This document shows, piece by piece, positions 35,472 to 64,000 of a DNA stretch of 64,000 nt. A model generated the notes under the pieces. It was not told where the DNA came from and ran no database searches. It saw only the letters and a program-made list of their open reading frames with translations. The DNA lies in the sequence record PV805631.1; one strand, written 5' to 3'. The stretch's first letter is position 1; every line of letters begins with the position of its first letter. The stretch is from a phage. The translations under genes were made by a program, and so were the position numbers.

Positions 35472-38400
35472 AATTTACTAAGTTCACCCAAGGGTTCAGG
35501 TTGTGAGCACGAAGCCCCTGACCAAAGCCCCATGAGTAATCCAGACTACCCTTAGCAGCAATACTAAAGATGTTGTCCTGAATAGGTAAGCCAACGTTAC
35601 CAAACATGGTAGGAGTTGGAGCCAGCATCGCCATTGCTGCATGTACTGGGTTATTGCGAATCATGGACACTGCAACCTTAGCTGAACGAATCTTAAAGTT
35701 GTAGAACCACATTAAACCAACGCTTTCCATATACCCACGGAAACGGCCCGGCAGACGGTCATAGTTAATGAACTCTTCGGTTACACGTCCCAGTGCTTCT
35801 TCACGAGTCTTACCTTTACGCTGGGTCAATTCATCATAGATGATTGCTTTAGCGATAAAGTCAGAGTACTCAACCGTCTTCTGGATACCCTGGAACAGAG
35901 CAGTATCCTTAGTGATAAGTGCATAACGACCAGCAGCACGTACAGACTTAGGTAACTTATCCGCCAGCTTTTCCATGTATTCGTGAAGTTTACCTTCAGT
36001 AATCAGGATGTCATCACGACCAATACCAGCATCTGCAATTGAAGAGAACTCACCAGCTTCTATCAGAGGCCAGATACTCATACGCTTATGGCTATCAGTA
36101 ATGGACTGAATCTCAGCCTTAAGTTTACGAATCTGGTTCGGGTTAGTAGCTGCACGTAATTCTGCTTCTGCATCTACCTGACGTAAACGAGATTTAAGGT
36201 ATTGGTTAATCTCAGCAGTCTTCCGTGGAATGCTCTTAGCAATGTTCTTAACCGGTACACCACGAGCAACCATCTGGTAAAGGTTAGCCAAAAAGTTAAC
36301 AACAGGTACGACTACTGACTTAACTACAATCAGAGTCTTAGCATCTTTAACTAAATTTTGAACCAGGTTCTCACCACCCATTAAGTACTTATAGGCACGG
36401 TTACCGGCTAAACCCAGAATAGCTTTTTTAAAAGTATTAAGCGTTTCCGGGGACCAACGAGAATTACCAGACCAAGCATCACCAATCGAAGCTGCACGAT
36501 AGCCAAGTGCATCATTCAGCATGTCACGACGTACCCACAGTTCACCCTCACCAAACAGTTTTTCTGCTTTCCGTCGAGTTTCACTGTTCATCAGCTTAAG
36601 AGCATCAGCAGTTACTGGGTCCAGTTTAGAACCAAAAAGGTTCACGTACTGGGACTTATTAGCAGCAGACATCTTAATGTCTTCCTTGTACATGCTATAC
36701 AGGTTCTCAATCAGCATATCATTGAAACGCTGAGCCTTAGCTTCTTCCACCTGACGTCCACGCCATACACCAATTGCACGGGCAAGATGATTTTCACCTT
36801 CAATATGCTTCAGCATATTAGGGTTAATTGATTGCTCATAAGCAACCACATCACCTTTAGCATTATATACAGGCAGCAGTGGTTCATTACCACGTTCACC
36901 ACGAGCTAGTGCTTTAGCGATACGGTCTACAGAAGGCTTGTCAGTAATACGACCAGCTACCATGGAACCCATAGTAAAGCCTGTACCGAGGTCTACACCA
37001 CCAGCAGTATTACGAACGTTCTGTAGAATACCTTGTGAGAACGGAGCCTGTGCCTGTACTGGGGCAAAGTAGTAGCTACGTGCCAGACCTCGGTTAGCAG
37101 AGCTACCTTGATAAGTACCCAGACGAACATAGGACTTCTCTATCAAATCACCAAACTCGCTATCTTCAGCAACAACCAGACTAACACCCTGTTTAGTCTC
37201 ACTAGGGATATACCCTTTGTACTGGTTCAGGGTTGCACGCATATCAGACTTGGCTTTAGCCATTTCATCTTTACGCTGCCCAACCAGGTAAGAAGTAGCA
37301 AAGTCCATTCCCTCAACTTCTGTCTGAGCCAGTGAAGATAACATCTCACGGTCGGACTTGTTCATTGCTTCCAGTGCATACAGGGTAATAAGTTTATCCA
37401 GTTGAGCTACATCTACAATAGAACGAGTAGTCTTACGTTCACCCAGCATACGAGAGATTGCAGTAGCATTACGCAGCAAGTTTTTACCGACTGTGCCATT
37501 AATCATGTACTGAGCCAGTTGCTTAGATTTACGGTTAATCAGAGGCCAGTTACGACCAGCTTGTTTCTGCAAATCTGCTTCCAGCTTATTCACTTCACGG
37601 TCAACAATCTTCTGGTCTGAAAGCAGGTCACGAATTTCAGCCAGAGACATGGTGTCACGCAGGACAGCTAAGTCAGTTTTACCCATACCAGTGTACATTG
37701 CTTTCCACTCATCCTTAGTCAGCTTACGGCTGAACTTAGATGCGATAGTGGTAGGCAGGTGTTCACGGAACTGCTGACGGTCAGCCTGCACCTGTGCACG
37801 GACTGCTTTAATCAAATCGTATACAGAAGCATTGCTCTTAGTACGACCGGTTAAATCATTAACCAGGTCATGGAAAGGTTGCCATACTTTACCCTGGTTC
37901 ATTGCAACCATAACGCCTTCAGCTACGTTTGCACCATTCTTCTCTGTAGCAATAGCAGCCATTAGTTGTGCAGCATGAGCAGCACCTTTGACCAATGGGT
38001 TCTTGGTATTAGCTGCAACTTCACGAGCACTTTCTAAAACACGAGTAGACAGTACATCAATAGAGTCCACCAAATACTGGTTAGCACGGTCAATAGCATT
38101 ACCACTAGGAGTAGCAACGGAATCATAGAATGACTGTGCATTTAGGCTAGTCTGCATGATTGTTTGAGCCAGTGCATCCATACCTTCCTGTACGTTGGTA
38201 GCTTTGGTATCACCTGCTACACGAGCATTCAGACTAGCCATTGCAGCAGTACCAATGTTAGTCAGCATTGCATCAACGGTATTCCCAGATTTCTTATCTG
38301 CTTTCATAACAGGAATGTTAGCCAGTACGTTACGTACCTCTTCACTTACCATTGCCAGACCAACAAAGGTAGGCAGTATTGAAGAACGACCCTGTGCATC

Positions 38401-41400
38401 AAACTCAATATTGTTAGCACCCATGATGGTATCGAACTTCTGCTGTGCATAGTAACGGTCAGCAGGGTTAGTACTATCTGGGTCAGTCATGAATGATTCA
38501 ACAGTCAGGTTCTTAGTAACGTGTGCATAGTATTCCTGTGCACGAGAAAGAGCAGCCGGACTAATAGCAGCTTCAGTAGCGAGTGCAGCAACAATGTTAG
38601 TAAAGAGACGCTGCTCCTGCATATTCATAGTGAAGCCATGAGCCTGAACATCACGGGTTACTTTAGTTGCGTGCTTTTTCGCATCAGAGAACTTACCTTC
38701 ACGGATTACTTGCTGTACTGGTTCTGAACCAATGTAGTTAGTAATCAGCTTATCAAATGTCTGTCCTAACTCTTCCAGACGGGTATTGTCACCATATGCT
38801 TTGTTATGGAACAAAGTAGTATCTTTGGCTACAGCAGCAGTAGGAGCCTGCCCACGCATAACAACTGAAGAGTTAAACAGTAAGCCAGAGAACATATCAT
38901 CAGCATTAGCAGGTGCTTCTTCACGACCAAATACCAGTCGCTTGATTGCTTCATATACAGACTGAATCATAACTTTCAGTGCTGTGGTCTTCTTCTGCTT
39001 ACTAATTAGCTCCTGGTTAGTTAAACCCCATGCCATGTACTCATTTAATGCAGCAGCTTTAGCTATTGCTGGTTCAATATAGCCATTAGACAAGTAGCCG
39101 TTAATGGTATAGAGGGCATCGGCATATGCTTCACGTACTTCCGGAGATTCATCCTTAACATCCAGAGCAAGGAACTGGTTCATCAGGTCTTCGATATTCT
39201 GGACTGCTTCGTTAGGAGTACCCTCATAGTGAGCCAGTACAGATTCAAAAGTAGAAGCATGTACCAATTCATGAACCAGAGTCTCTAAGGAAGGGGTGAC
39301 TAAGTAGATGGTCTTATCATCAAAGTTAGTCCAGCCGTATGTATTACCTGCTTCGGCAGCTTCAATATCTTCTGGTGCTGGACGGGTAATGTTCTTCTCA
39401 ATAGCGTAAGCATCCAATTGAGCAGGAGTACCGTAAACAACCTTGTAGTCTTTAGCAGCAAGGGATTTCTGTATCTCTTTCAATACTGCTTGCTGTTCTG
39501 GAGACATCTCTTTAGCCAGCTTGGTAATAGCAGTATTAGACAATAGACGTACACCAGACTTAAGTACACGACCAACTTGTTCCATTGCTGGCACTTCTTT
39601 AACAGGTGCTTCTTTAGTAGGTACTTCTTTCACTGGATCTGCTTTAGCAGCACGTACTGCATCACGACGCTTATTTAATTCAGCATCAAACAGTTCGTTC
39701 AGCTTAGCTACTTGCTGGTCTACAGTCAGTCCCTCAAGAGAAATTTTACCGTTGTTCACATAAGGAGCACCTACAGCAGCCATCTGGTCAACAGTGGTCT
39801 GTACCTGGTTCATTACTTTGTGGCGAATATCCACACTTAAAGCAATGTTACGCAGGTTACGCTCAATAAGGTTAACACCGGAATTCTTAATCATATCAAT
39901 CTTATACTGCCTGTCTCCCTCAACGCGACTGATATGAGAAAGCTGTTCAAAATCTAAAGCGGAACGGGCAATGTCATCAATTGTCTTATCTGACAACTTA
40001 TCAAAGTCTACATTCTTCAAGAACTCAGAGAAGGATTCATATACAGCCTTGATAGGATTCCCCTGCCAGGAAGTGTATACAGCCTCGTTTGCTTTACGAC
40101 TTGCATCAGTGATGTCACTAATACCAATGTTCATACCATCAAAGATTTTCAGGGTATTCTTCGGAGCACCTTTCATAGTAGAAAGGGTCTGCATCATCAT
40201 GCCATCACCAGTACCGATGGTCATAAATGGAATACCTGCAACACCTGCTTGTGAAGGAGCATAGATGCTCATTGGCACACGCATACGGTCATCTAAGTTG
40301 GTAGCCAGTACTTGGTTAGCAACGTCAGTACTCTCACTGCCAGCAAGGTAGAAAGTCTGTGAGCCAGTCTCAATCATTGGAGCCAGTGGTGATAATGATT
40401 CCTGGATTTCATTCAGTTCTTTCTGTGTTAAGAAATCACCCTTCTTCCAGGTTGGGTCTTTTTCTTTTTCTGCTAGCTTAGCCTGTACTGCTTGCTGGAA
40501 CATATCCTGCAATACCAGGGACTGAATCTGAGTAGCCTTCTGCAAGTTCTCAGTAGAGTACATCAGACCTTCACCAACAGTATTACGGATACCAGTACGC
40601 ATTGGTTCAACGAACAAATGGAGCATATTCTCTTGTAAGTTCTTCAGAGCATTACCGGATACGGTAAATTTCTGAGGGTCTAACTTACCAGTCAGAGCAC
40701 CATCTACTTCCTTAATAAATAACTTACCCTTACGCTTAGCTGGAATCTTACCGGTCAGTGCTTCCATAGAAGTAAGGAAAGTATCCAGCATAGCCTGAGC
40801 ATCTGCCTCAGACGCAGCCTCCTTACCAAACATTGCCATAGCCGGGGAAATGCTAGGGTCAGCAGCACGTGCTTGCAGAACGTCGCTGAAGCGTTCGTAG
40901 ATGGTGTCAGTAATTGCACTGACCATCTTGCCAGCAATACCACGAGCACCAGAACCATAGATGGTAATGGTCAGAGGGTTCTTAGCGATACCACGTTTCA
41001 GGTCCAGAGTACCATCTTCATTCAGGTTAAAGTCTTTAATGAACAGGTCCATTAACTTCTGGAGATGATTTATCTGGTTCATAACTGGAACGTTGTTACG
41101 GTAAGTAGTACGTAACTCATTCAGTGCTTGTTGTAGACCATTGGTAGATGCTTCATACAAGTCAACATTATCGTCGATAGAACAATGTTCATTCATCGTT
41201 TTACCAGCACGACCGAAAAACAAACCACCTTTGGCAGTATTCTTAATCCAGTCTGGAGTGAACTTACCACCGGTCATTAATACCATTGCGTTGATTGGGC
41301 CGTTGGTTACACCATCAGCTTCAACGTACAGAGGGGTAGTAAAATTAACACGATCATCACTGTTCAGGTAACGGGCATATTCCATCAGAGCCATGAGAGC

Positions 41401-44400
41401 CACGAAGGATTTGTTATCACCCAGAGAGGTTTTCAGAATATCTACTGCATCAGTAGGTAAGTAGCCAGACTTATCAAACTCGACCATCATATCAACAGCA
41501 GGTTTCAGATTACCTTCCAGAGCTTTGGTCAGATTTTCAGACATAGCTTCACGGGACATTTTATGTACCTTGATGCCTAATGCCTGAGCCAGACCTAACT
41601 GGAAGTCAGAGAACGCTTGGCTGTTTTCATTACTCAAGTCAATAGTAGAGAAGGTTGGCAGAATTGCTTCACGAACCAGCTTACTGGATTGTGGGTTATT
41701 CTTACCAAGCATCTGCATACGACCTACACGGGTCATGTTGTAACCGTAGTGAATGGGGGTATCCAAACCATTCTCTTGTTCTTTTAGCTGATTAATTAAA
41801 CCGAACAAGGAATCATATGCCATAGACACAGACAGGTTTTTACCCTCCAGTGACTTAGCAGTGTTACCGTTCAACAGTTTAGGATTAAGAGTACCAGCAC
41901 CCATCAGTTCCAGAATGCCGTCACGCCCCAATGCTTCATAGAAGTTAACCATCGGCATGTGTACACGGAACTCCGTAGCCTGTTCAGCTTTCAAAGCAGC
42001 TTTCTGTTCCGGGGTATTCCTAACAGCAGGGTTACGTAACTGAGTTTGAGCCACGGAAGGAATGTCATCACCGAAGTACGTTTTCTCTTCCGGATTTACC
42101 AGCACAGCTTCCTCAATTGCTGTAGGGAAATTATTAATAGGGTCTTTATCTGCCAACTTATTAATAGTGTACAGACCAATAGTCTTATTAGAGTCCGGGT
42201 CAATCTCAGACACATCCAGCATAGTCTCAGTAACTGCACCCATCTCAATGAGGGAAGACAGAATCTCTGTAGCCATTGCCACTGGAATACCCTTGGTATA
42301 ACCCAGTGGTGCATTAGGGTTACGGTTTAAACCCCAGTAGGATTCAATCTTTTGAGCCAGTGAGTTAGTAGCCTCAATCAGAGTCTGGGCATTATCAAAC
42401 TCAGCCAGAATACTTTCTGGTAACAGAGATGCATCTACACCAGTAATAGCAGCCACGTCTTTCATGTCTTTAATGGCAGCATTCTGTGTAGCAGTCAGTC
42501 GCCATTGCAAACCAGCAAGTACAGCAGTCTCTAACAACTGATCATTGAACTTAAAGGTATCCCCGTCTTTCTCTACGATGTTAAGTAACTTACCACCTAC
42601 CCAACGGTTAGCCTCAGTACCTTCTGCAAAACGTTTACCAACATTCTTATTAGCAAGGAACTTAGCCAGTCGTTCAGACAAAGTAGTCTTCAAAGTTTCC
42701 CCAAAGTCCATCAAGTCTTGATAGCGTTCTAACACATCACCTGCGAGAACGTTATTTTCTTTTTGAGTGAACGCTTCAAAGCGAGCAGCAGAAGACAGTG
42801 CTTTCTTGATATCAGCCAAAGGAGATTCTGAACCAATGGTACGAGTCTTAGGTTCTTCCGGTAAGGTAAATGCTTTCAGAAACTGGTTCGGTGTCTTTTC
42901 ATTGTTATAGACAGGGAACACTGCTTCCATTCCAGAAAGAGGTTTGCCACCCACTGTATAATCTGCTTTCAGCTGAGCCAGTGATACTTCATCTTCCTCT
43001 ACGTTGTTAGTGTTAAGACCAGAGGTATCTACACCAACCAGAATATGTGCATTATTGGCTTCAACGAAAGATTGAACAGTATTGAATTGTTCAGCAGTCA
43101 GTTTCTGATCATCGAACAGCTGTAAGGACACAAACGGTTGTTCGCTGCCTTTATAGAACATAGAGCGAATAGCACCTGTATCCAGAGACATATCACGATA
43201 ACCATCATGACCAAATACATCGGACAGGCTGATATGGTCGCCATTAGAGCCAACCACAGTACCATCAGCAAACAGCCATGGACTCTCTCTACGATCACCA
43301 TACTTATTAAGAGTTTCCTGTGAAATAGTATTTTCTTTCACATAAGCATCTCTTTCAGATTCGGTAGGTTGCTCGATGGTATCCTCATTAGTAAGGGTAG
43401 CATCATCTACAACCGGGCTAGCCTTTTCAGACTTAGGTACTTTCTCTTCCTGTACAGGTGTAACTTCTGGCTGGGAGAATGTATTACGTACATAGTTCAT
43501 AAAATCATTACGTGCTTGGGAAGGGGAAGACCATACTTCCCGTGTGCTACGTAAACTAAAGATTCGACCTTCAGGAGTCATTACGTAAGGTACATTTGTT
43601 TTACCGTACTTAAATGAAGTGAGTACATCTGACTTACCAGTAACAGTGCTTTCCCCTGGAATGACAATAGTCTTACCACCAGTAGAAGGAACAGCACGAA
43701 CACCCTCAATATCCTTACCAAGAGAAATATACTCTTTACCGTTGTAATCAAAGTACTGACCTATCTGCATATAGGTAGCTTGTTGCTTACCAGTAAACTC
43801 AGCAGTTTTCATCTCCGGGCCGTTAGGTACAGACGTACTTTCAGACTTAGGCTTAGATACTTTCTCTGGTTCTGACTTAGACTCTACAGTGTTAGGGGCA
43901 GTCTCTTTTGCTTCGACTGGTGCAGTTTTTGACTGTACAGTAATGGCTGGTTCCTGTGTTTTTACAGGTGTTTCATCAACCTGATTCACTGGTTCATTAG
44001 TCTGTTGGGACTGAGTGGCATTAAGACCACCTTGACGGAACTCTTTAACTACCTGGGCAGCTGGCTTGTTCAGACGTGAATCCAACGAGGTAACTTTCAC
44101 ATGAGAAACATTAAGCTCCGGGTAAGCCGTAGCAAGTGCATTAGCAATATCAGCTACGGTTTTGGCCTCCAGTGCTACTTGCTGGGCAAACTTAACAGAC
44201 TTGGTATCATAAGGATTAACACCGAGGCCAGTACGACTACGTACCCATTCACGGGTAGGCGTGAGAGCCTGATAATGAACAGACTTATTCTTATCCGCAT
44301 TCCCCGAAATCAGATGCTCATTCAACGCTCCGACCTTATTCTGCATGTGCTGGGCGAACTTCATAAAATCGCTCAGATAAGCGGAAGCCAAATCGAAGTT

Positions 44401-46731
44401 ACCAGAGTTATACGCAGAACGAATGCGTTTCGCATGTTGCAACGCAGAGTACTGTCCTTCATTAGAACGAGACTCGTCGGTTTTAATCTGTTTACTAACA
44501 ATGTCTTGAGGACGTAAGCCCAGTTCTTCTGCTTTAGCATCATACTCACGTGCACCCTGTAACAGAGCAGCAGCTGATTGCAGGGCAGCACGTTGACGAT
44601 TATTCAGTGTAATCTTACCTTCACTTGCGTGCTTCAGAACCATGTTCACTGAATCTGCATCCAGTACTTCTGGAGACACATCAGCAGCCATAGCAATGTT
44701 GTTTGCTTGGGCTTGATTAGCTTCTTCAGTAGCTTTCAGTTTACCTGCTTCAGCTTGTTCCTGAATCATGGAATGGATGGCACGGAATGCACGAAGTACT
44801 TTAGGGGTATTCTGTATGTTAGCCATCAGGCCGGAGAACTGGTCTACGATTGCAGCAGCAGGAGAACCTTGTTCCAGATTAGCCAGAGCACCTGGGTCAC
44901 GGTTAATGAAGCTATCCATAGACATGATGTTGTCATACATCTGGATTGCAGCTTCCATTTGAACGTCAGGGTCTTCAGCAGTATTAACCAAGTCAGCCAT
45001 CTTCTGAATAGCTTCCACACGGTTAGTGGAACCAGAAACAGCTTCACGGATTACTGGGTTGGCTTGTTCCAATTCTACTGGGTCAAACTTCATTGCCTGA
45101 GTCAAGTCAGCAGCATACTGGGTAGCAGCAGCTTTCTCTTCTGGAGTGATATCCATTGCATCTACTGCTTCCTGTACGGTTGCCTGTGCTTGTTCTGCCT
45201 GAGCAACAGCTTCCTGTGCAGCAGCATTAACCGTAGCATCGGCTACAGGGGATGCTTGTTCATTACGCTTAGCAACTTCTTCCCCACGTTGAACCAGGAT
45301 GTTAGTAAGAGGAGATGCAGCTTTTGCTAATGTTTTACCAACCAGAGAAGCACCAGCCAGAGTGGTACGAAGAGCAGGTCCAGCAGCAGCACCGGCAGCT
45401 TTAACAGTTGCACCAGGAGCCTGAGCAACACCAGCACTACCGAAGCCATAGAGTGCACCAAGACCCGCTTGCTCACCGACACCTTTGAGGGTATCTCGGG
45501 ATGCATCAACATTTTCCTTGATTGCACGGTTCTGTGCGAACTGACCAAAGCCTGATTGAGTACCCTCTTCAAAAGTCTGAGCACCAAGGTTAGTAAGAGC
45601 TGCCCCAGCAGAACCAACCCTCATGGGGTTAAGTTCAAACTTAGATACTAACGGACCCATAGCAGCAGCAACTGGGGCAGTTAAGGCAGCAGCAATGATA
45701 CCCGTTTCAGATGCAGTCTGACGACGTGCTTCATCAGGAGATAAACCATCAGCAATATGTTGTTGGTAAACAGGAGACTTACTTGCCAGTTCTGGATGGG
45801 ACATCTTCATGATTTCAGAAGCAGTCTGTTGGTATGCACCCCCGGCTTCCATGCCACCGATTGCAATAGCAGGTGCAGCAACACGACCAGTAGACAATGC
45901 AACCTGTGCAGGACGTGAACCCAACCCAGCAGCTAAGGTAATACCCTTAACAGCTTTATCACCACCTACCATTACTTTACCGAGTGCAGATACACCACGA
46001 ATAAGTGGACCACCAGTAAAGAGGGAACCGACACCCTCACTCAGTCCATCTGAGGCAGCCATACCATTATCAAGTGTGTTAGCAACAGAGTCGAAAGCAT
46101 CACGACCAATACGAGACAGGGAGGCAACCAAATCACTCTCCCCGTTTTTGATGTCCTGTTCATAGAGTTTCTGGTTCTTTTGAGCAGAAATCTGGTTCTG
46201 ATTCTGAACAACTTTACGGGTAGCATTCAGTGCATCAGACTGTAGATTGTGTACGCCTTCATTCAGCCAATCCATCCCGGAAGCAATGGTTGCCCCGGCA
46301 TTATCATTGACCAGACCTGCGCCAAGAGCAGCAATGCCCCCAAGGGTATTAGCAACACCAAGACCAACACCAGAAAGAGTATCGCCAAATGCTTCTGCGT
46401 TAGTACGCTGTTTAGATAAGTCCTGACGTACAGCATCCGCAGCATTAGCTCGGCTATTAAGAATCTGTAAACCTTGCTCATTACCGTACTTATTAATGAT
46501 TTCTAATGGGGAGGCTTGAGTGAAGTCTGCCTGAAGTGAACCTGGTTCGAATGCACCGATTCCAAGATTACCTACTCGTCCAGTCTGGAGAGTGTAAGCA
46601 TTCTCTGGGGTTAATTGGAAAGGGCTTTGCCCTTGTGCAGCTTGCTTCTGAGAGGTTGCAGTAGAGACATCGACTTGCTTAGCATTAGTGATGCTGTCTG
46701 CGAAACCTGCCAGACGGTCAAATGTTGACAT
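35470..46731 (-). CDS. Virion-encapsidated RNA polymerase (N4 gp50-like vRNAP)
   Basis: Single ORF of about 3750 aa; T7-like motif A (VEADGVTNGPINAM) and motif B (RGIAKNPLTITIYGSG); start moved to the ATG at 46731 with AGGAAA upstream. Confidence 0.9.
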   Translation of the reverse strand: MSTFDRLAGFADSITNAKQVDVSTATSQKQAAQGQSPFQLTPENAYTLQTGRVGNLGIGAFEPGSLQADFTQASPLEIINKYGNEQGLQILNSRANAADAVRQDLSKQRTNAEAFGDTLSGVGLGVANTLGGIAALGAGLVNDNAGATIASGMDWLNEGVHNLQSDALNATRKVVQNQNQISAQKNQKLYEQDIKNGESDLVASLSRIGRDAFDSVANTLDNGMAASDGLSEGVGSLFTGGPLIRGVSALGKVMVGGDKAVKGITLAAGLGSRPAQVALSTGRVAAPAIAIGGMEAGGAYQQTASEIMKMSHPELASKSPVYQQHIADGLSPDEARRQTASETGIIAAALTAPVAAAMGPLVSKFELNPMRVGSAGAALTNLGAQTFEEGTQSGFGQFAQNRAIKENVDASRDTLKGVGEQAGLGALYGFGSAGVAQAPGATVKAAGAAAGPALRTTLAGASLVGKTLAKAASPLTNILVQRGEEVAKRNEQASPVADATVNAAAQEAVAQAEQAQATVQEAVDAMDITPEEKAAATQYAADLTQAMKFDPVELEQANPVIREAVSGSTNRVEAIQKMADLVNTAEDPDVQMEAAIQMYDNIMSMDSFINRDPGALANLEQGSPAAAIVDQFSGLMANIQNTPKVLRAFRAIHSMIQEQAEAGKLKATEEANQAQANNIAMAADVSPEVLDADSVNMVLKHASEGKITLNNRQRAALQSAAALLQGAREYDAKAEELGLRPQDIVSKQIKTDESRSNEGQYSALQHAKRIRSAYNSGNFDLASAYLSDFMKFAQHMQNKVGALNEHLISGNADKNKSVHYQALTPTREWVRSRTGLGVNPYDTKSVKFAQQVALEAKTVADIANALATAYPELNVSHVKVTSLDSRLNKPAAQVVKEFRQGGLNATQSQQTNEPVNQVDETPVKTQEPAITVQSKTAPVEAKETAPNTVESKSEPEKVSKPKSESTSVPNGPEMKTAEFTGKQQATYMQIGQYFDYNGKEYISLGKDIEGVRAVPSTGGKTIVIPGESTVTGKSDVLTSFKYGKTNVPYVMTPEGRIFSLRSTREVWSSPSQARNDFMNYVRNTFSQPEVTPVQEEKVPKSEKASPVVDDATLTNEDTIEQPTESERDAYVKENTISQETLNKYGDRRESPWLFADGTVVGSNGDHISLSDVFGHDGYRDMSLDTGAIRSMFYKGSEQPFVSLQLFDDQKLTAEQFNTVQSFVEANNAHILVGVDTSGLNTNNVEEDEVSLAQLKADYTVGGKPLSGMEAVFPVYNNEKTPNQFLKAFTLPEEPKTRTIGSESPLADIKKALSSAARFEAFTQKENNVLAGDVLERYQDLMDFGETLKTTLSERLAKFLANKNVGKRFAEGTEANRWVGGKLLNIVEKDGDTFKFNDQLLETAVLAGLQWRLTATQNAAIKDMKDVAAITGVDASLLPESILAEFDNAQTLIEATNSLAQKIESYWGLNRNPNAPLGYTKGIPVAMATEILSSLIEMGAVTETMLDVSEIDPDSNKTIGLYTINKLADKDPINNFPTAIEEAVLVNPEEKTYFGDDIPSVAQTQLRNPAVRNTPEQKAALKAEQATEFRVHMPMVNFYEALGRDGILELMGAGTLNPKLLNGNTAKSLEGKNLSVSMAYDSLFGLINQLKEQENGLDTPIHYGYNMTRVGRMQMLGKNNPQSSKLVREAILPTFSTIDLSNENSQAFSDFQLGLAQALGIKVHKMSREAMSENLTKALEGNLKPAVDMMVEFDKSGYLPTDAVDILKTSLGDNKSFVALMALMEYARYLNSDDRVNFTTPLYVEADGVTNGPINAMVLMTGGKFTPDWIKNTAKGGLFFGRAGKTMNEHCSIDDNVDLYEASTNGLQQALNELRTTYRNNVPVMNQINHLQKLMDLFIKDFNLNEDGTLDLKRGIAKNPLTITIYGSGARGIAGKMVSAITDTIYERFSDVLQARAADPSISPAMAMFGKEAASEADAQAMLDTFLTSMEALTGKIPAKRKGKLFIKEVDGALTGKLDPQKFTVSGNALKNLQENMLHLFVEPMRTGIRNTVGEGLMYSTENLQKATQIQSLVLQDMFQQAVQAKLAEKEKDPTWKKGDFLTQKELNEIQESLSPLAPMIETGSQTFYLAGSESTDVANQVLATNLDDRMRVPMSIYAPSQAGVAGIPFMTIGTGDGMMMQTLSTMKGAPKNTLKIFDGMNIGISDITDASRKANEAVYTSWQGNPIKAVYESFSEFLKNVDFDKLSDKTIDDIARSALDFEQLSHISRVEGDRQYKIDMIKNSGVNLIERNLRNIALSVDIRHKVMNQVQTTVDQMAAVGAPYVNNGKISLEGLTVDQQVAKLNELFDAELNKRRDAVRAAKADPVKEVPTKEAPVKEVPAMEQVGRVLKSGVRLLSNTAITKLAKEMSPEQQAVLKEIQKSLAAKDYKVVYGTPAQLDAYAIEKNITRPAPEDIEAAEAGNTYGWTNFDDKTIYLVTPSLETLVHELVHASTFESVLAHYEGTPNEAVQNIEDLMNQFLALDVKDESPEVREAYADALYTINGYLSNGYIEPAIAKAAALNEYMAWGLTNQELISKQKKTTALKVMIQSVYEAIKRLVFGREEAPANADDMFSGLLFNSSVVMRGQAPTAAVAKDTTLFHNKAYGDNTRLEELGQTFDKLITNYIGSEPVQQVIREGKFSDAKKHATKVTRDVQAHGFTMNMQEQRLFTNIVAALATEAAISPAALSRAQEYYAHVTKNLTVESFMTDPDSTNPADRYYAQQKFDTIMGANNIEFDAQGRSSILPTFVGLAMVSEEVRNVLANIPVMKADKKSGNTVDAMLTNIGTAAMASLNARVAGDTKATNVQEGMDALAQTIMQTSLNAQSFYDSVATPSGNAIDRANQYLVDSIDVLSTRVLESAREVAANTKNPLVKGAAHAAQLMAAIATEKNGANVAEGVMVAMNQGKVWQPFHDLVNDLTGRTKSNASVYDLIKAVRAQVQADRQQFREHLPTTIASKFSRKLTKDEWKAMYTGMGKTDLAVLRDTMSLAEIRDLLSDQKIVDREVNKLEADLQKQAGRNWPLINRKSKQLAQYMINGTVGKNLLRNATAISRMLGERKTTRSIVDVAQLDKLITLYALEAMNKSDREMLSSLAQTEVEGMDFATSYLVGQRKDEMAKAKSDMRATLNQYKGYIPSETKQGVSLVVAEDSEFGDLIEKSYVRLGTYQGSSANRGLARSYYFAPVQAQAPFSQGILQNVRNTAGGVDLGTGFTMGSMVAGRITDKPSVDRIAKALARGERGNEPLLPVYNAKGDVVAYEQSINPNMLKHIEGENHLARAIGVWRGRQVEEAKAQRFNDMLIENLYSMYKEDIKMSAANKSQYVNLFGSKLDPVTADALKLMNSETRRKAEKLFGEGELWVRRDMLNDALGYRAASIGDAWSGNSRWSPETLNTFKKAILGLAGNRAYKYLMGGENLVQNLVKDAKTLIVVKSVVVPVVNFLANLYQMVARGVPVKNIAKSIPRKTAEINQYLKSRLRQVDAEAELRAATNPNQIRKLKAEIQSITDSHKRMSIWPLIEAGEFSSIADAGIGRDDILITEGKLHEYMEKLADKLPKSVRAAGRYALITKDTALFQGIQKTVEYSDFIAKAIIYDELTQRKGKTREEALGRVTEEFINYDRLPGRFRGYMESVGLMWFYNFKIRSAKVAVSMIRNNPVHAAMAMLAPTPTMFGNVGLPIQDNIFSIAAKGSLDYSWGFGQGLRAHNLNPWVNLVN

Positions 46732-46795
46732 AGCATGTTTCCTGTTCAAACTTATATCGTATATAGGTAACTTACTCTACAGTAAGCCAGTTAAA

Positions 46796-46825: not shown

Positions 46826-48790
46826 TTACCGATTTTGTCTGGGTTGCATATACTCAGGCAGTCCTTGTGCCTGACGTAAGTACCGTGCAGCACGTTCTTC
46901 ATCTTCCTTGGCTCGTGCCCTGTCCACACTAGCCTGTGACCGAAAACCTCTTGGAGCCAGGTTAGCTGGGTCAGCCTGTACTTGTGCCTGTGCAGCTTGG
47001 AGCATTGCAGCAGCTTTAGTAACAGCCTCCTGTCGTGCAGGTAACAGTGCAGTAAGACCAGTTTGCCCGGTGTTAATCTTATTCTGGGTATTTGCCAGTG
47101 CAGCTACAGCAGCATCATACGCAGTCTGTGCTGCCTGAATATTCTGCATAGCTTGAGCACGACCTAGGTTACGAACACTACCTTCCAGTGGTTCTCCACG
47201 TTTCACACCCTCAATTAACTGTTCTACCTGACGGTCATTAAGACGCATACCATTACCGGCTTCATTGGTAATGAATGGGTTAACTGCATCAATAGCACGG
47301 CTAATATAACCTTCCGGTACACCGGTCTGTGCACGTTGCATAACAGCAGCAGCCATAGCAGGTGACATATTCCCACGTTGGGAAATATCGTTCAGTCGGT
47401 TCAGTACCCAGTTACGGTCAGCACCTTTAAAATCACCTTCCAACAGACGGTTAGCAATCTCACCTACTGGGGTATTATCAGTGACAGTACCGAGGAAGTC
47501 TGTGTTAAGACTACCGGTGTTATCCTGCATGGAACGTGTACCAATCATACCCTGAGCCAGAGTAGATACTGCCTGATTACCTTGATTATTCTGAACCATA
47601 GCTAGTGGGTCAGCCCCTACTTCAGCTTGGGCAATAACAGGTTTAATCTCTTCCCATGTCATATCCTTATAAGCACCTGGGGTAGAGTTAGGCAGAGCAG
47701 CCCAAGTATCTTTAAGGTTACCGTTCTTACGAGCCTCGAAGATAGCCTTACCAATCTTATCCTGGTTCTCAGGAGAAAGGGGCTGGCTTTGCCAATCTGA
47801 ACCAAGAACTTTAGGAGCGAAGTCTTTCAGGGTAGCTTGGTTAATCTGGAATGCTCCAACAGGTGAAGCACCCTGATTCGACTTCATACCATCCTGGTGT
47901 TTAATTACATCACCAATACTCATTTGAGTAATAGGAGTAGATGTACCAGCAAACTGGTAGGTAACATCGTAAGGGGAACCCTGACGTGTACCAGCAGTAC
48001 CCGGAGCAGACGTAGCACCAACATTGTTACCGTAAACACCCGGGTATGCTCGTGCAAGCATTTCCTGCAAACGTGCCTGGGCAACCGGAGACAGGTTCTT
48101 ACTATATGCTTCTGCCAATAGACGGGCATCATTAGGGTTCTCAGCACCACGGGTAATCTGTGACATTACACCCATAGCTGCCTGACTATCGGCATCATTA
48201 CGCTGAGCAACACCTAAATCAAAACGGTTCTGTGCCTGATTAATAGCCTGACCACTTTGGCCTTGAAGACGGCTCAGCATGTCCAATTGCTGGTCAGCAG
48301 GGAGTGCAGACAATGCATCACGGGTCTGACTTAATGCAGCATTAATACGGTTCTGGTCACCTGACTGGTATGCCTCAGACAGTAAACGGATAGCAGGGGA
48401 AGCATTATCTAATGCAGTGTTAGTATCCTGTAAACGACCAAAGCGATACGCATTGTAGTCATTGGTTCCCTGCTGACCTTGTTGAGTCAACAGTGTACCT
48501 GCTCTCTCATCCAGGTTTTGAAGGGTACGCTGGTTTATCAATGAACGGTCAACCCCCTGAAATAATGCACCAGATGCCAAAGCATTACGGTACTCAGTAG
48601 GGTCTTGGTACTGCATAGCATTCATCATGACGGCATTGCCAGCCTCCTGCTTGGCAGCGTTCTGGAAATTACCCAGTGCATCACTTAAGCCGGAGGTGGC
48701 GTTACCAATCATGCTGCCAAATGTGCGAATGCTGTCACCAACTCCAGAAAAGTTAGGTGCATCAACATTACGCCATGTAATTTGAGCCAT
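46826..48790 (-). CDS. Virion protein (N4 gp51-like position)
   Basis: Large Gln/Asn/Ala-rich ORF immediately upstream of vRNAP; synteny only. Confidence 0.5.
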   Translation of the reverse strand: MAQITWRNVDAPNFSGVGDSIRTFGSMIGNATSGLSDALGNFQNAAKQEAGNAVMMNAMQYQDPTEYRNALASGALFQGVDRSLINQRTLQNLDERAGTLLTQQGQQGTNDYNAYRFGRLQDTNTALDNASPAIRLLSEAYQSGDQNRINAALSQTRDALSALPADQQLDMLSRLQGQSGQAINQAQNRFDLGVAQRNDADSQAAMGVMSQITRGAENPNDARLLAEAYSKNLSPVAQARLQEMLARAYPGVYGNNVGATSAPGTAGTRQGSPYDVTYQFAGTSTPITQMSIGDVIKHQDGMKSNQGASPVGAFQINQATLKDFAPKVLGSDWQSQPLSPENQDKIGKAIFEARKNGNLKDTWAALPNSTPGAYKDMTWEEIKPVIAQAEVGADPLAMVQNNQGNQAVSTLAQGMIGTRSMQDNTGSLNTDFLGTVTDNTPVGEIANRLLEGDFKGADRNWVLNRLNDISQRGNMSPAMAAAVMQRAQTGVPEGYISRAIDAVNPFITNEAGNGMRLNDRQVEQLIEGVKRGEPLEGSVRNLGRAQAMQNIQAAQTAYDAAVAALANTQNKINTGQTGLTALLPARQEAVTKAAAMLQAAQAQVQADPANLAPRGFRSQASVDRARAKEDEERAARYLRQAQGLPEYMQPRQNR

Positions 48791-48802: not shown

Positions 48803-49285
48803 TTAACGAGTAAGTTTATTAGCTGCAATGTAAGCATCAGCTGAAGACTGGTCACGGTTCTCTGCTGTAGCACGGCTACGAGCACGGTCTTCCAGTGCAG
48901 TGTTATAAGACTTAATCTGATTATTCAGGTTAGTGTTAGTAACGCTCTTAGCAAAGTTCAACTGGTTTTTGGCTAACTTGTTAGCCTGGAAACCACCATA
49001 GATATTGGCTAAGGAACCAAGTGCATCAAGTCCTAGTTGGAAGGTAGGAATATTCATGCCTAATTGGTCAGTCAAGCCTGAATCATTACCTGAGCCAAAC
49101 AAAGAACTATCCAAACTACCATTTAAAAAATCCATGCCAACTGTTTGTCCGGGCCGATAATTCATTGCCGGAGTACTAAAGTTTTGCTTCTGGTTGTTAC
49201 CAGATAACCAGGACAAAGCCCCTGGCTGAAGGGTTTGGTTGCCTGTAAAGAATGACAAATCCATGGGGATTCTCCTGTTAAACAA
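48803..49285 (-). CDS. Virion protein (N4 gp52-like position)
   Basis: ORF track; synteny. Confidence 0.45.
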   Translation of the reverse strand: MFNRRIPMDLSFFTGNQTLQPGALSWLSGNNQKQNFSTPAMNYRPGQTVGMDFLNGSLDSSLFGSGNDSGLTDQLGMNIPTFQLGLDALGSLANIYGGFQANKLAKNQLNFAKSVTNTNLNNQIKSYNTALEDRARSRATAENRDQSSADAYIAANKLTR

Positions 49286-51929
49286 GGTCAGTATTAAGAG
49301 TCATATCAGAGTAGCTGCCAATCATGTTTAAGGACATGTCAGCTATATCCGAACCAGTCATAAGAGTACGTGAGAGGAAAGAATCCAACGACTCCAATGA
49401 CACAAATTGCATAGGGTCAATTACACCCTGCCCAGCAGTACCAAACATTTCTTCATACTGCTTATTGATTGCCATCATATCAGTATTGTACTGCTGCATT
49501 ACATTCTCTGCTTTCTGAATAGTAGCAGCCGTAGATGCATTAATATACTGGCTAATACCATTACCTACTGAACTGGTAAGCTGCATAATGTTCTGAGCAT
49601 TCATCATTTCACCGGCTAAGGTAGATAAGGATGTACCAGTAGACATAGCAGTACCAACGTTCATAGCCACCATTGAAGCAATAGCAGCAATGATAAAACC
49701 TAGCTTATCACCAAACAGAGAAGTGGATACTTTAGTGACAATAGATATCATAATCATTGCAGCAATGGCGTTTGCTACAGCACCTACTATTACAGCAGCT
49801 AATCCAACAAAACCTAGCGATGCACCAACTGCACCATAAGCCCCAAGAATACCTGCACCACCAGCACTACCAGCACCCATAGTAAATACGGATATAACGA
49901 CAGCAACTACAACAACCACAATCTTAAAGGCAGAGGACTGATACCACTTTTTCTTAACCTTTTTATATGAGTTCATTACTAAGTAAGAGCAGGCAGTAGA
50001 TAACTGAGTGCTACGAACTAGTGACATTGAACGATAGATGTTGGTGTGCAGGGGAATAATGAATCCACTCTCTTCTGCATCACCCATTGCTTCAGCAACA
50101 TCAATATTTACTGACTTATTTTTATATACCTTGTTGCTATGATGAAGGCCCAATACCCTAAGTTTACGGTAGGTATTATTACCATCCTGCCAAAGCAACT
50201 CATATTCTTGCATAGTATAAAACGTAGGGGTAACTTCCAGCTTTTTGCTAGCACCAGCACGCATGTTCTTACGGGTAAGGGTTATATCCCCTGCATATCT
50301 GGCTCGAAGTTGTCCTTGTTTAGCACCAGCCCATGCTTCACCGGAATGGGTAGTTTCAAATACGTAGTTCCAACTAATAGTCATATCATACTTATAATGC
50401 TTACTACTATGCACCCTAAACTCCCGCTTAGGTATAACAGGGTATTCTGGCAGCGGTGGAGGTGTTCCAACAATTTGGCCTTCATGCCTGTCCCACCATT
50501 CCTCATATGCATCTACTGCATCGTTTGCTGCCTGATAACCTGCAATCACTGCTTCCAGTGTAGGGTAGGTTGGATCAGGTGGAAATGCTTCAGTAGCCAT
50601 CTGAAAGAAACGGTAGATGTATTCCTTAGCAGTATCTTCTGGAGTATTAAGAGATACACCGAATGTGCCATAGATGTATTGAATATCGCCTATGTCATCA
50701 TTCTTCTTAAGCTCAGTCACTACTTTATCTAGCTTACCACCAGTAGCTTTATAGAGTGCCTTCTTACAGTGGGGGTAGATTGTGTCATTCTCTACCCATT
50801 GCTTATCATTCCTGATTGGAATAAATGGATAGAATCGGTTATCAGTAGCCTCAGTTTCAAACAGTGAATCGAGTGTAGCGTTACCTGAGTTCTTCTTATA
50901 GATAAGCATCTTAGGTGTACCAACAGCAGTCATCTCAGTGTCAGTACGAGTAGTCTGGGATGAGTACTTACGAACCAGTGTCTCTGTGGTCGTGGTGATT
51001 GTATCGGTGCGAGTAACACCACCACCTAAATTAACTACATTAGTGGTTACAGTAGTACTGGATTGAACCTCACCAAACTTTCTATGAGTCATTACCCTGT
51101 CAGATACAACTACAGTTACATCATCAGGTTTCTCAGTGAACCCTCTACGGTAAACCTTAACGTAAGAGTTCCAGTTATCCACACTTGGTACAGTAACAGT
51201 ACTGTCTTCATATGGTCTACCATCAGAGTAAACAGAATGAGTCTGTATAGTCTTAGTAAGATTGGTTGTGTTAGCCGTCGTATTACTTGAGATGGTAGTC
51301 CATAACAGAGTAGACGGTAAGTCATTTTCGCTGTTATAGACAGTAGTCGGACCTACTACCGGTGGATTGGTAGCCGGGGACTTATAGAACGTGTAATCAG
51401 CATAGAGATACAAAGCACCTGGTTCAAAGTTAGTAGGTGTGAATGTAATGGGGGAACCTCCATCTAAGGAGGTCATAGCGATTACATTGGTATCTTCATC
51501 AATGTCTACATCGAATCGTTCCATGATTCGACTTGGGGCATTCTCATAAAGATACTGATCACACCATTGCTCAAAGTCAGCAAAGCCAATCTCTGCTGCC
51601 TGAACATAGACAGATTCTCCAGCAGGTGGAGTAATTTGACCCTCTATAACAGTAGGGTCAATCTTAGCCAGTACACCTAATGAAGCCCCTGCCATACCAA
51701 CTTCTGAATCATAGTGGTTCTTGCTCCAGCTAGAGAACAGTCGCATACGTATACCAGGCCCCTTCAGATAACTATCAGAGATAGTGTCTGCCATAGTGAA
51801 TCCTGTATCAGCAACAATCTTACCGATGACTACAGTCTTCATATAGTTTGGACGTTTGTGTATATCCCCTGCCATGTTATAGACAGAGGATGCTACGTAT
51901 ACTTTGGTCTTACTACTGAATAAGCCCAT
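49278..51929 (-). CDS. Large virion protein with C-terminal Gly/Ala-rich hydrophobic segments (N4 gp53-like position)
   Basis: 883 aa; C-terminal region has several glycine-zipper-like hydrophobic stretches. Confidence 0.5.
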   Translation of the reverse strand: MGLFSSKTKVYVASSVYNMAGDIHKRPNYMKTVVIGKIVADTGFTMADTISDSYLKGPGIRMRLFSSWSKNHYDSEVGMAGASLGVLAKIDPTVIEGQITPPAGESVYVQAAEIGFADFEQWCDQYLYENAPSRIMERFDVDIDEDTNVIAMTSLDGGSPITFTPTNFEPGALYLYADYTFYKSPATNPPVVGPTTVYNSENDLPSTLLWTTISSNTTANTTNLTKTIQTHSVYSDGRPYEDSTVTVPSVDNWNSYVKVYRRGFTEKPDDVTVVVSDRVMTHRKFGEVQSSTTVTTNVVNLGGGVTRTDTITTTTETLVRKYSSQTTRTDTEMTAVGTPKMLIYKKNSGNATLDSLFETEATDNRFYPFIPIRNDKQWVENDTIYPHCKKALYKATGGKLDKVVTELKKNDDIGDIQYIYGTFGVSLNTPEDTAKEYIYRFFQMATEAFPPDPTYPTLEAVIAGYQAANDAVDAYEEWWDRHEGQIVGTPPPLPEYPVIPKREFRVHSSKHYKYDMTISWNYVFETTHSGEAWAGAKQGQLRARYAGDITLTRKNMRAGASKKLEVTPTFYTMQEYELLWQDGNNTYRKLRVLGLHHSNKVYKNKSVNIDVAEAMGDAEESGFIIPLHTNIYRSMSLVRSTQLSTACSYLVMNSYKKVKKKWYQSSAFKIVVVVVAVVISVFTMGAGSAGGAGILGAYGAVGASLGFVGLAAVIVGAVANAIAAMIMISIVTKVSTSLFGDKLGFIIAAIASMVAMNVGTAMSTGTSLSTLAGEMMNAQNIMQLTSSVGNGISQYINASTAATIQKAENVMQQYNTDMMAINKQYEEMFGTAGQGVIDPMQFVSLESLDSFLSRTLMTGSDIADMSLNMIGSYSDMTLNTDLV

Positions 51930-51930
51930 A

Positions 51931-52773
51931 TTAATTCAGCCCGTTGTTAGACTTCAGCTTGGACAGAATGGTATCAATACTTGCGTTGGTGAATCCATTA
52001 GGTGGGTTCAAGCCTTCATCAATAGTCTTCTGTGTAATCCATGCATCAGTAAACAACTTAGATGCTTTAACTTCTGCATCACGTTGGTAAGAAGTAATCT
52101 GTTGAGAGTACAACTCTTTCTGCTTACCTACGGAACCCCTAACTGCTGCACCGTCTGTACGAGTATCCAATGTCTGTGCACGTTGTGCCTCAGTCTGCTC
52201 AGTAATCAGTTTAAGCTGTTGGGGTAACATCTGGTCAGCATTAAACAATGCAGCACAGTATGTCTCAGACTCAGTAGCAATCTTCATCTTAGTGAGTGCA
52301 TATTCACTCTTAGCAGACAGTGCCTGAATCTTAGCCAGCACATACTGAGCTTTAGATGTTGCCAGTTGAACACGTGCAGTAACTGCCTGAATCTGTGCCA
52401 TAGCAGCAGCCCAGTACGCTTGGTCTCGACCAAGTAAGAACTGAACAGCATTACTCATGCAAGATTCCATCATAGCAATGTATGCTTTGGTATATTCACC
52501 ACCGGTAATACGGTTAGCTTTAAACTCAGCCTTAAGATGATTGTGTGCAGATTCCATTAATGCATCAAACGTACCACTACCACCTACTTCACGGGTAGTA
52601 AGTGATTCATTGGTTACTTTAGTAATAGCATCAAAGATTGGAGAATTATCTCCACCAGGGATATCCCATTCAGGGCCAGACATATCAATGTCAGGGAGGG
52701 TAAAGTCATCACCCTTAGTTAACTCTTCTAGGAGTCGGTTAGCTTCTACCTCAGCAGAACAAGACATAATCAT
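51931..52773 (-). CDS. Virion structural protein (N4 gp54-like position)
   Basis: ORF track; synteny. Confidence 0.45.
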
Positions 52774-63161: not shown

Positions 63162-64000
63162 CTACCTGATAATGAACTTACCGAGGCTCATATCATTTAT
63201 CAGAGTTGCAACTATGTTTGCCAGTTGGGTGGTTGTTAACGTGTTCACATCACCACCACGCAACTGTCCGGCGTTTGTGAATGGGAACTGCTGAGGCTGA
63301 GCGCTATTGTAAAACTGGTTCCCCTCTTCATACCGAGAAGACGGCGTAGAAGTGTAAAGGATTCCTTTAGTAGTCGCAGGAACAGAACAATTCACGATGT
63401 TTACATGACCAGCGATGCCAACGCACTCGATAGGGCGATCAACAGTACCAAACGGTTGAACACCAACCAGGCGATGCACGTTCAAGCTCTGAGCTGCCTG
63501 CGCGTACAGATAAGAACTAGGCTGCCCGTTAACACCTCTGATGTTCCAGTTGTCTACTTCAATGTGTCGGGCATTATGAATCTGACAGATTGCTTGACCG
63601 TCTGCATCAGGAAATGCACCAACAATACGCACGTTCTTCATAGTGATATCGGAAGTAGCTGTTGCGTTCAACCCGCAGTTAATCATAACAGCTTTAGAAC
63701 CAGATTGTGTGCAGTGGATTGTCAGCCCGTCGAATTCAATATCGCCTAGATTTACTGTGTGAGAGGAGCCATCCTTACGCAAAAAGAATACAGCCCAATC
63801 TGTGTGTCCTGTTATTAAGATATTACTAAATCGCAGGCGTGTGCAGACTACCGGATAATATCGACAGAGGATTGGCTGTGAACAATTCTTGATTGTGATG
63901 TTGTCATACGTGACATCACTGGAACCCTCAATCGCAATACCCGCATTACATGCTTCAATGTAAGCACCGGTCACACTTCCGTTGGTGAAGTTTGCGCGGA
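63162..64000 (-). CDS. Second tailspike-like beta-helix protein, 5' end beyond the window
   Basis: Frame stays open from 63974 to the window edge; beta-helix-like repeats (NITIKNC, VRIVGAF). Confidence 0.45.
   Translation of the reverse strand, partial: RANFTNGSVTGAYIEACNAGIAIEGSSDVTYDNITIKNCSQPILCRYYPVVCTRLRFSNILITGHTDWAVFFLRKDGSSHTVNLGDIEFDGLTIHCTQSGSKAVMINCGLNATATSDITMKNVRIVGAFPDADGQAICQIHNARHIEVDNWNIRGVNGQPSSYLYAQAAQSLNVHRLVGVQPFGTVDRPIECVGIAGHVNIVNCSVPATTKGILYTSTPSSRYEEGNQFYNSAQPQQFPFTNAGQLRGGDVNTLTTTQLANIVATLINDMSLGKFIIR

What the first reader, a model, noticed from the sequence alone, without database searches (positions are those of the whole stretch)
49278..51929. Large virion protein with C-terminal glycine-zipper-like hydrophobic segments
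The last third of this 883-aa protein contains several Gly/Ala-rich hydrophobic stretches (e.g. IVVVVVAVVISVFTMGAGSAGGAGILGAYGAVGASLGFVGLAAVIVGAVANAIAAMIMI). That pattern is typical of membrane-inserting channel formers, so this may be an ejection protein that helps pass the 3750-aa vRNAP into the cell.
Basis: inference. Interest (0 to 1): 0.45.

Follow-up and report, generated by a model that had tools for sequence, protein, structure and literature searches.

The report
Tail plug protein of an N4-like phage
This gene encodes the single-copy plug that corks the tail tube of an N4-like coliphage (G7C gp53). By homology to the solved N4 protein, its greasy glycine/alanine-rich stretch is the cork itself and not a membrane channel, so the finding is real but already explained.

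Summary
The 883-aa ORF (49278-51929, minus strand) and its C-terminal hydrophobic Gly/Ala-rich block (residues ~662-773) are real and non-random. The same block is conserved across hundreds of relatives.

The window is Escherichia phage vB_EcoP_G7C or a near-identical relative, and the protein is gp53. It aligns end to end (54% identity) with N4 gp53, solved in PDB 9YFT and described in 2025-26 as the single-copy tail plug that seals the 12-mer tail tube gp54. In N4, residues 29-56 and 670-716 (G7C 29-56 and 670-719) form a "hydrophobic knot" of short helices that corks the tube. The last ~160 residues lie disordered in the tail lumen.

The channel-former/ejection-protein reading is not supported. 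In N4 the channels are made by gp51 and gp52, and the plug is still seen on emptied particles. The "glycine-zipper" periodicity is no more than composition gives.

Two things remain open. The cork may have a second, membrane-active life after unplugging. And it is unknown what holds the plug in G7C, which lacks the N4 holder gp65.

The parts
49278..51929 (-). gp53, the tail plug protein (883 aa plus stop)
   Evidence: ORF. 99.8% aa identity to G7C gp53. Full-length match to N4 Gp53, PDB 9yft_FA, E=0. phrog_2220 over its full length.
51846..51929 (-). Residues 1-28, the most conserved N-terminal segment (MGLFS...YNMAGD...R)
   Evidence: 70% mean identity across 85 non-redundant homologues. M1, N18, A20, G21 and R26 are invariant. 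93% identical to the N4-type protein.
51762..51845 (-). Residues 29-56, the N-terminal half of the 'hydrophobic knot' (two short helices)
   Evidence: Equivalent to N4 29-56 with no indel. N4 knot described in PMC13434306. AF2 helices 29-40 and 46-55.
51300..51761 (-). Residues 57-210, first part of the globular core that sits outside the tube
   Evidence: AF2 pLDDT about 85-92. Only 43% identical to the N4-type protein.
50928..51299 (-). Residues 211-334, the beta-feather: four 24-31-residue antiparallel strands, 25% Thr
   Evidence: AF2 strands 211-234, 241-266, 272-302 and 305-334. Domain-only model pLDDT 93. Composition. Least conserved region and absent from ~13% of homologues. 'Feather-shaped beta-sheet' in N4, absent from DEV gp74.
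49935..50927 (-). Residues 335-665, second part of the globular core, ending in the basic patch KKVKKK and the near-invariant W662-Y663
49749..49934 (-). Residues 666-727, the hydrophobic Gly/Ala-rich block. Residues 670-719 correspond to the C-terminal half of the N4 knot that corks the tube; the N4 model ends at residue 724 (G7C 727).
   Evidence: Mapping. Hydropathy. G706 and N720 are invariant; G693, G696, G702, G709, A712 and G716 are 90% or more conserved. AF2 pLDDT below 50 as a monomer.
49281..49748 (-). Residues 728-883, the C-terminal tail that is disordered in the N4 tail lumen. It contains a further hydrophobic helix (743-773) and a conserved terminal motif (841-870: ES.D.FL.RTLMTGSDIA).
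   Evidence: [quoted passage not shown] E846, R854, T855 and G859 are invariant. phmmer with residues 640-883 finds the module only at the extreme C-terminus of all 150 best hits.
51931..52773 (-). gp54, the tail tube (12-mer) that the plug seals. Its TAA stop lies 1 nt before the gp53 ATG.
   Evidence: PDB Gp54 (9lc0/9yf4/9yft) E 5e-124; Moo19 tail protein 9d80_C E 2e-148. Junction sequence.
48803..49264 (-). gp52, a small ejection protein stored in the tail lumen that forms the outer-membrane channel in N4. The ATG at 49264 is preceded by AGGAG.
   Evidence: G7C annotation. phrog_2646. N4 roles. Start region.
46826..48790 (-). gp51, the ejection protein that forms the periplasmic tunnel in N4
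   Evidence: PDB 11mn_A '66 kDa protein' E 1e-127. G7C annotation: presence in the virion confirmed.
35470..46749 (-). gp50, the giant virion RNA polymerase and last gene of the gp54-gp53-gp52-gp51-gp50 run
   Evidence: ORF list. G7C annotation.

Best explanation
The gene encodes the Schitoviridae tail plug, the G7C orthologue of N4 gp53 and DEV gp74. One copy sits on the distal end of the dodecameric tail tube (gp54) and keeps the DNA and the lumen-stored ejection protein gp52 inside. [quoted passage not shown] The chain dips into the tube twice. Residues 29-56 and the Gly/Ala-rich hydrophobic block 670-719 pack together as a knot of short helices that acts as the cork. The remaining ~155 residues (a further hydrophobic helix and a conserved terminal motif) extend up the lumen. 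Receptor engagement displaces the plug sideways and pulls the cork and the C-terminal tail out. That frees gp52, then gp51, then the vRNAP gp50 and the DNA. Shown here: orthology, synteny, the fold of the core, and conservation of the cork residues. Taken from the N4 and DEV structures by homology: single copy, position, the knot and the lumenal tail. Inferred: the order of release.
Against: No structure or proteomic detection exists for G7C gp53 itself; the GenBank notes list gp51, gp54 and gp67 as confirmed in the virion, but not gp53. AF2 as a monomer does not place residues 684-883 (pLDDT below 50), and a covariation test between 29-56 and 666-727 gave no signal. The knot in G7C therefore rests on homology alone. 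G7C lacks gp65, the protein that holds the plug in N4, so the gating step must differ in detail.
Confidence: 0.9

Rival explanations
1. Dual-state plug. After unplugging, the hydrophobic cork and the lumenal C-terminal tail leave the tube first and insert into the outer membrane. There they anchor the tail tip or seed the gp52 channel. This would parallel the hydrophobic L-loops of phi29 gp9, which plug the tube in the virion and then form a membrane-active helix barrel. This extends the plug explanation and does not replace it.
For: Three to four segments are hydrophobic enough to span a bilayer and are preceded by a KKVKKK-WYQ boundary. Phobius called four TM helices in the KP8 orthologue, and N4 gp53 is described as predicted to contain TM domains. 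The C-terminal tail shares the lumen with gp52, and the N4 authors suggest it acts as a 'ripcord'. phi29 precedent: PMC6542822. gp53 was not among the proteins tested in bilayers.
Against: There is one copy per virion. N4 empty particles still show the plug on the tube, although these emptied in vitro. The strict conservation of Gly and Asn positions is already explained by the knot. There is no direct evidence of membrane contact.
Confidence: 0.18
2. gp53 is an ejected protein whose Gly/Ala-rich helices oligomerise into a membrane channel through which the vRNAP passes.
For: Hydrophobic, Gly/Ala-rich helices. The gene lies next to the ejection cassette.
Against: The N4 orthologue is a single-copy external plug that is retained on emptied particles. 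Three or four helices from one chain cannot line a ~35 A channel. The channels are accounted for by gp52 and gp51, shown in bilayers and by cryo-EM. Small-xxx-small periodicity is not above composition.
Confidence: 0.04
3. The hydrophobic block is a true inner-membrane anchor used during assembly in the infected cell. gp53 would be membrane-inserted first and extracted onto the tail later, and the block would have no role in the mature virion.
For: A TM-like block with a basic flank that fits the positive-inside rule. N4 lysis-timing screens picked up a gp53 missense once, although it did not reproduce the phenotype.
Against: In N4 the block is seen structured inside the tube in the virion. 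There is no signal peptide, and the block lies 660 residues from the N-terminus. Sequence-level conservation of Gly and Asn goes beyond what an anchor needs.
Confidence: 0.04

Closest known systems
Bacteriophage N4 gp53 tail plug (PDB 9YFT; Bellis et al., Nat Commun 2026, PMC13434306)
   Same: End-to-end alignable with 54% identity. Same length (883 versus 885 aa) and the same position between the tube gene gp54 and gp52. It has the same parts: the MGLFS N-terminus, knot segments 29-56 and 670-719, the beta-feather, the globular core and the lumenal C-terminal tail.
   Different: The exterior core and feather are the most diverged parts (39-43% identity). G7C has no gp64 or gp65, so the N4 'tail-gating complex' (gp53 held by gp65 domains D9-D10) cannot exist in that form. 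G7C also has a 3-residue insertion in the Gly-rich loop.
Pseudomonas phage DEV gp74 tail plug (PDB 9ZE4 chain M; PMC12892993)
   Different: 740 aa with no beta-feather. About 13% identity over the structural alignment. It is held by the gp56-gp55-gp54 receptor-binding fibre.
phi29 gp9 tail-knob L-loops (PMC6542822)
   Same: A functional analogy only: hydrophobic helical segments that occlude the tube lumen in the mature virion.
   Different: No sequence or fold relation. There are six copies belonging to the tube protein itself. They are shown to exit and form a membrane-active barrel, which has not been shown for gp53.
Schitoviridae ejection proteins gp52 and gp51 (DEV gp73 and gp72)
   Same: Neighbouring genes in the same operon. 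Virion proteins with hydrophobic segments that share the tail lumen with the gp53 C-terminus.
   Different: They are multi-copy (12 in the virion), are lost on ejection, and have demonstrated channel activity. gp53 is single-copy and retained.

Membership tests
Schitoviridae tail plug (N4 gp53 / DEV gp74) | Full-length sequence homology to a structurally solved plug | tested here: met
   9yft_FA Gp53 E=0, 1-882 against 1-883; 9ze4_M E 1e-15. 54% identity to the N4-type protein. phrog_2220 over its full length.
Schitoviridae tail plug (N4 gp53 / DEV gp74) | [quoted passage not shown] | tested here: met
   ORF order. Neighbours identified by PDB matches. The same order holds in EcP1 and JSF3.
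Schitoviridae tail plug (N4 gp53 / DEV gp74) | Globular core fold of the plug | tested here: met
   [not shown]
Schitoviridae tail plug (N4 gp53 / DEV gp74) | The two segments that form the hydrophobic knot (N4 29-56 and 670-716) are present and conserved | tested here: met
   They map to G7C 29-56 and 670-719 at 61-62% identity. Invariant or near-invariant Gly, Ala and Asn positions.
Schitoviridae tail plug (N4 gp53 / DEV gp74) | The two segments actually pack into a knot inside the tube | tested here: inconclusive
   The monomer AF2 model gives pLDDT below 50 for 684-883. MI-APC between the segments is no higher than controls (max z 3.3 versus 3.3). This needs the tube context.
Schitoviridae tail plug (N4 gp53 / DEV gp74) | One copy per virion at the distal tube end | not testable with these tools
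   Known for N4 and DEV. In G7C-like Moo19 there is only weak unassigned density plus MS detection of gp70. G7C gp53 is not listed as MS-confirmed.
N4-type tail-gating complex (gp54:gp65:gp53, 12:6:1) | A sheath/receptor-binding protein gp65 whose domains D9-D10 hold the plug | tested here: not met
   The G7C record goes gp63 - gp63.1 - gp66 - gp67 with no gp64 or gp65 annotated.
Glycine-zipper membrane channel formers | Periodic (G/A/S)xxx(G/A/S) repeats beyond what composition gives | tested here: not met
   25 versus 20.6+-2.8; triple motif 12 versus 7.9+-2.8; GxxxG 3 versus 2.0+-1.3 in shuffles of the region.
Glycine-zipper membrane channel formers | Helices hydrophobic enough to span a bilayer | tested here: met
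   Wimley-White sums of -5.0 (666-684), -3.8 (713-731) and -2.3 (745-763).
Glycine-zipper membrane channel formers | Oligomer that lines a pore, with demonstrated membrane insertion | not testable with these tools
   The orthologue is single-copy. gp53 has not been tested in bilayers.
Schitoviridae ejection proteins | Stored inside the capsid or lumen in multiple copies and lost from emptied particles | not testable with these tools
   By homology it is not met: the N4 plug is seen on both full and empty particles.
Aerolysin-type beta pore-forming proteins (considered for the beta-feather only) | Significant fold similarity to the elongated pore-forming domain | tested here: not met
   [not shown]

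The most novel reading that the evidence does not exclude
The conserved hydrophobic cork and lumenal C-terminal tail of the plug are not merely a stopper. On receptor triggering they would be the first polypeptide to leave the tube, and they would insert into the outer membrane. There they would tether the tail tip or nucleate the gp52 channel. This would be a single-chain counterpart of the phi29 L-loop switch. In sheath-less G7C-type phages, which lack gp65, it could be the main way the plug is removed from the axis.
Probability: 0.15. Interest if true: 0.55.

Novelty: already known. Interest (0 to 1): 0.2.

Why it matters
It gives a function to a gene still annotated 'hypothetical protein' in G7C and in most of the 269 phage records that carry a homologue. 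It also explains the TM-like prediction that has led some annotators to call it a membrane protein. The remaining scientific value is narrow. One question is how the plug is held and released in G7C-type phages, which have no gp65 sheath. The other is whether the cork has any membrane activity after release.

Tried and rejected
1. Pfam gave no family for gp53 or its halves, even at E up to 10. PHROGs gave only phrog_2220 'unknown function'.

2. Glycine-zipper periodicity was tested by shuffling and is not above composition.

3. Covariation (MI with APC, 131 sequences, Neff 85) between residues 29-56 and 666-727 showed no enrichment over control blocks. The top pairs all lie within the beta-feather. 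The test is uninformative, not negative.

4. The AF2 monomer model did not place the hydrophobic or C-terminal region (pLDDT below 50). No multimer modelling with the tube was available.

5. The Foldseek PDB library ends in April 2026 and did not return 9YFT. The link to N4 therefore rests on the sequence search, and the structural link on DEV 9ZE4.

7. The Structure 2025 paper on the N4 tail (doi 10.1016/j.str.2025.04.008) is not held. No paper in the library deals with G7C gp53 itself.

Full report
OBSERVATION

- Residues 670-732 contain no D, E, K or R (63 aa). A second charge-free run covers 743-773.
- Kyte-Doolittle windows of 1.6 or more span 662-763.
- Gly+Ala is 30% in 661-790 against 12.6% in the first 660 residues.
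- A charge-free run this long appeared in 0.04% of 5000 shuffles of the protein.
- In 118 homologues the median longest charge-free run is 64 aa, at relative position 0.76.
- On the Wimley-White octanol and Hessa scales, 666-688, ~700-731 and 743-763 are hydrophobic enough to span a bilayer. They are preceded by KKVKKK-WYQ.

The "zipper" periodicity does not hold up: small-xxx-small and GxxxG counts are within 1.5 SD of shuffles of the same region. And the block sits nearer the last quarter of the protein than the last third.

IDENTITY

- tblastn finds 99.8% identity to gp53 of Escherichia phage vB_EcoP_G7C (Schitoviridae, Gamaleyavirus), where it is annotated "hypothetical protein". There are 269 phage records with a homologue.
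- Pfam has nothing. PHROGs gives phrog_2220, "unknown function".
- Against PDB sequences, the protein aligns end to end (E=0) with chain FA of 9YFT, "Gp53". It aligns more weakly with 9ZE4 chain M, "N4 gp53-like protein".
- The gene order on the minus strand is major capsid (gp56), gp55, gp54, gp53, gp52, gp51, gp50 vRNAP, as in N4.
- gp54 matches the solved N4 and Moo19 tail tubes, and gp51 matches the solved N4 "66 kDa protein".

WHAT THE ORTHOLOGUE IS KNOWN TO DO

Bellis et al. (Nat Commun 2026, PMC13434306; preprint PMC12633501) report the following.

- The 12-mer N4 tail tube is closed by one copy of gp53, which has a globular core and a feather-shaped beta-sheet outside the tube.
[quoted passage not shown] - gp65 domains D9-D10 hold the core, giving a 12:6:1 tail-gating complex.
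- The plug is seen on both full and empty particles.
- The C-terminus is proposed to act as a ripcord for lumenal gp52.
- The channel formers are gp52 and gp51, both shown in lipid bilayers. gp53 was not tested.

DEV gp74 is the homologous plug. It lacks the feather and is held by the gp56-gp55-gp54 fibre (PMC12892993). Homologues were detected in virions of LIT1 and Moo19.

One caution on the Bellis paper: its abstract assigns gp51 to the outer membrane and gp52 to the periplasmic tunnel, the reverse of its results and discussion. I follow the latter.

MY OWN TESTS ON THE G7C PROTEIN

1. Mapping. N4-type 29-56, 670-716 and 724 correspond to G7C 29-56, 670-719 and 727. The only difference in this region is a 3-residue insertion in the Gly-rich loop.

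2. Conservation. In 85 non-redundant homologues the best-conserved blocks are 1-30, 601-660, 691-720 and 841-870. G706 and N720 are invariant. G693, G696, G702, G709, A712 and G716 are 90% or more conserved. E846, R854, T855 and G859 are invariant in the terminal motif. The pattern is conservation of sequence, not just of hydrophobicity. That fits tightly packed short helices.

3. Distant relatives. The most distant Schitoviridae examined (EcP1 gp53, 781 aa; Vibrio JSF3 gp034, 702 aa) keep MGLFS, KWYQ, a ~100-aa Gly/Ala-rich hydrophobic block and the terminal motif.

4. Exhaustive search. phmmer with residues 640-883 against 1.84 billion cluster representatives gave at least 1000 hits at E up to 1e-3 and 430 at E up to 1e-30. 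In all 150 best hits the module lies at the extreme C-terminus. Lengths cluster near 880-900 and 730-750 aa, that is, with and without the feather.

5. Divergence between N4-type and G7C. Tube-facing and lumenal parts are 61-93% identical. The exterior core (57-185) and the feather are 43% and 39% identical.

7. Covariation. A test between the two knot segments was uninformative.

MECHANISM

Best supported (confidence 0.9): gp53 is the single-copy tail plug, and the hydrophobic block is the cork inside the gp54 tube together with residues 29-56. The C-terminal ~155 residues run up the lumen alongside gp52.

- Shown here: orthology, synteny, the core fold, and conservation of the cork.
- Taken from N4 and DEV by homology: copy number, location, and the knot.
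- Inferred: the release order gp52, gp51, gp50, DNA.

One small consistent detail concerns translation signals. The gp53 ATG follows the gp54 TAA by one base with no Shine-Dalgarno sequence, whereas gp52 has AGGAG. This suits a 1-copy versus a 12-copy product, but it is an inference.

RIVALS

It conflicts with the single copy, the retention on emptied N4 particles, and the assignment of the channels to gp52 and gp51. Confidence 0.04.
- Assembly-time inner-membrane anchor. This is unlikely because the block is structured in the virion. Confidence 0.04.
- Dual-state extension. The cork would insert into the outer membrane after release, as the phi29 gp9 L-loops do (PMC6542822). This is not excluded, because gp53 has never been tested on membranes and the empty N4 particles were emptied in vitro. 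I give it about 0.15-0.18.

WHAT DIFFERS FROM N4

The G7C genome has no gp64 or gp65. gp63.1 (the esterase tailspike) and gp66 occupy that position. The N4 holder of the plug is therefore absent. In the similarly sheath-less Moo19, only weak unassigned density was seen at the tube tip. What retains and releases the plug in this genus is unknown. The diverged exterior surface of gp53 is where I would look.

THE FEATHER

VERDICT

The feature is real and is explained by recent literature. It is the Schitoviridae tail plug, and the hydrophobic block is its cork. Novelty: already known. Interest: low (0.2). The residual interest lies in the untested membrane behaviour of the cork and in the unknown plug-holder of G7C-type phages.

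Noticed in passing
L002 (HQ259105.1 59000-72917). In the window, the gp63.1-like ORF at 60580-63114 and the ORF starting at 63162.: G7C has no gp64 or gp65 (the N4 sheath and NfrA-binding protein that holds the plug). gp63.1 and gp66 take that position. The partner that retains and gates the plug in G7C-type phages is therefore unknown. Sheath-less Moo19 showed only weak unassigned density at the tube tip.
   Followed up: partly
[not shown]
   Followed up: yes
window 51927-51933 and 49264-49280 (-): The gp53 ATG lies 1 nt after the gp54 TAA with no Shine-Dalgarno sequence. The gp52 ATG, 13 nt after the gp53 stop, has AGGAG. This is consistent with a 1-copy versus a 12-copy product.
   Followed up: partly
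window 48803-49285 (-) and 35470-46749 (-): The mechanical ORF list starts gp52 at a TTG (160 aa) that overlaps the end of gp53, whereas G7C annotates the ATG at 49264 (153 aa). Likewise the vRNAP ORF is 3759 aa from a TTG against 11,247 nt (about 3748 aa) as annotated.
   Followed up: no
window 51915-51929 (-), residues 1-5: The N-terminus MGLFS is nearly invariant across all Schitoviridae plugs, including the most distant ones. In JSF3 it lies 8 residues after the annotated start, which suggests that start is mis-called. Its role is not explained by the published description of the plug.
   Followed up: partly
literature (PMC13434306): The abstract of Bellis et al. 2026 assigns gp51 to the outer-membrane complex and gp52 to the periplasmic tunnel. 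This is the reverse of the paper's own results, figure legends and discussion.
   Followed up: no
L004 4300-5568 (Vibrio phage JSF3): The gp51-position gene of JSF3 is annotated 'nucleoporin / Nucleoporin_FG2'. This is probably a low-complexity artefact of annotation for the ejection protein.
   Followed up: no
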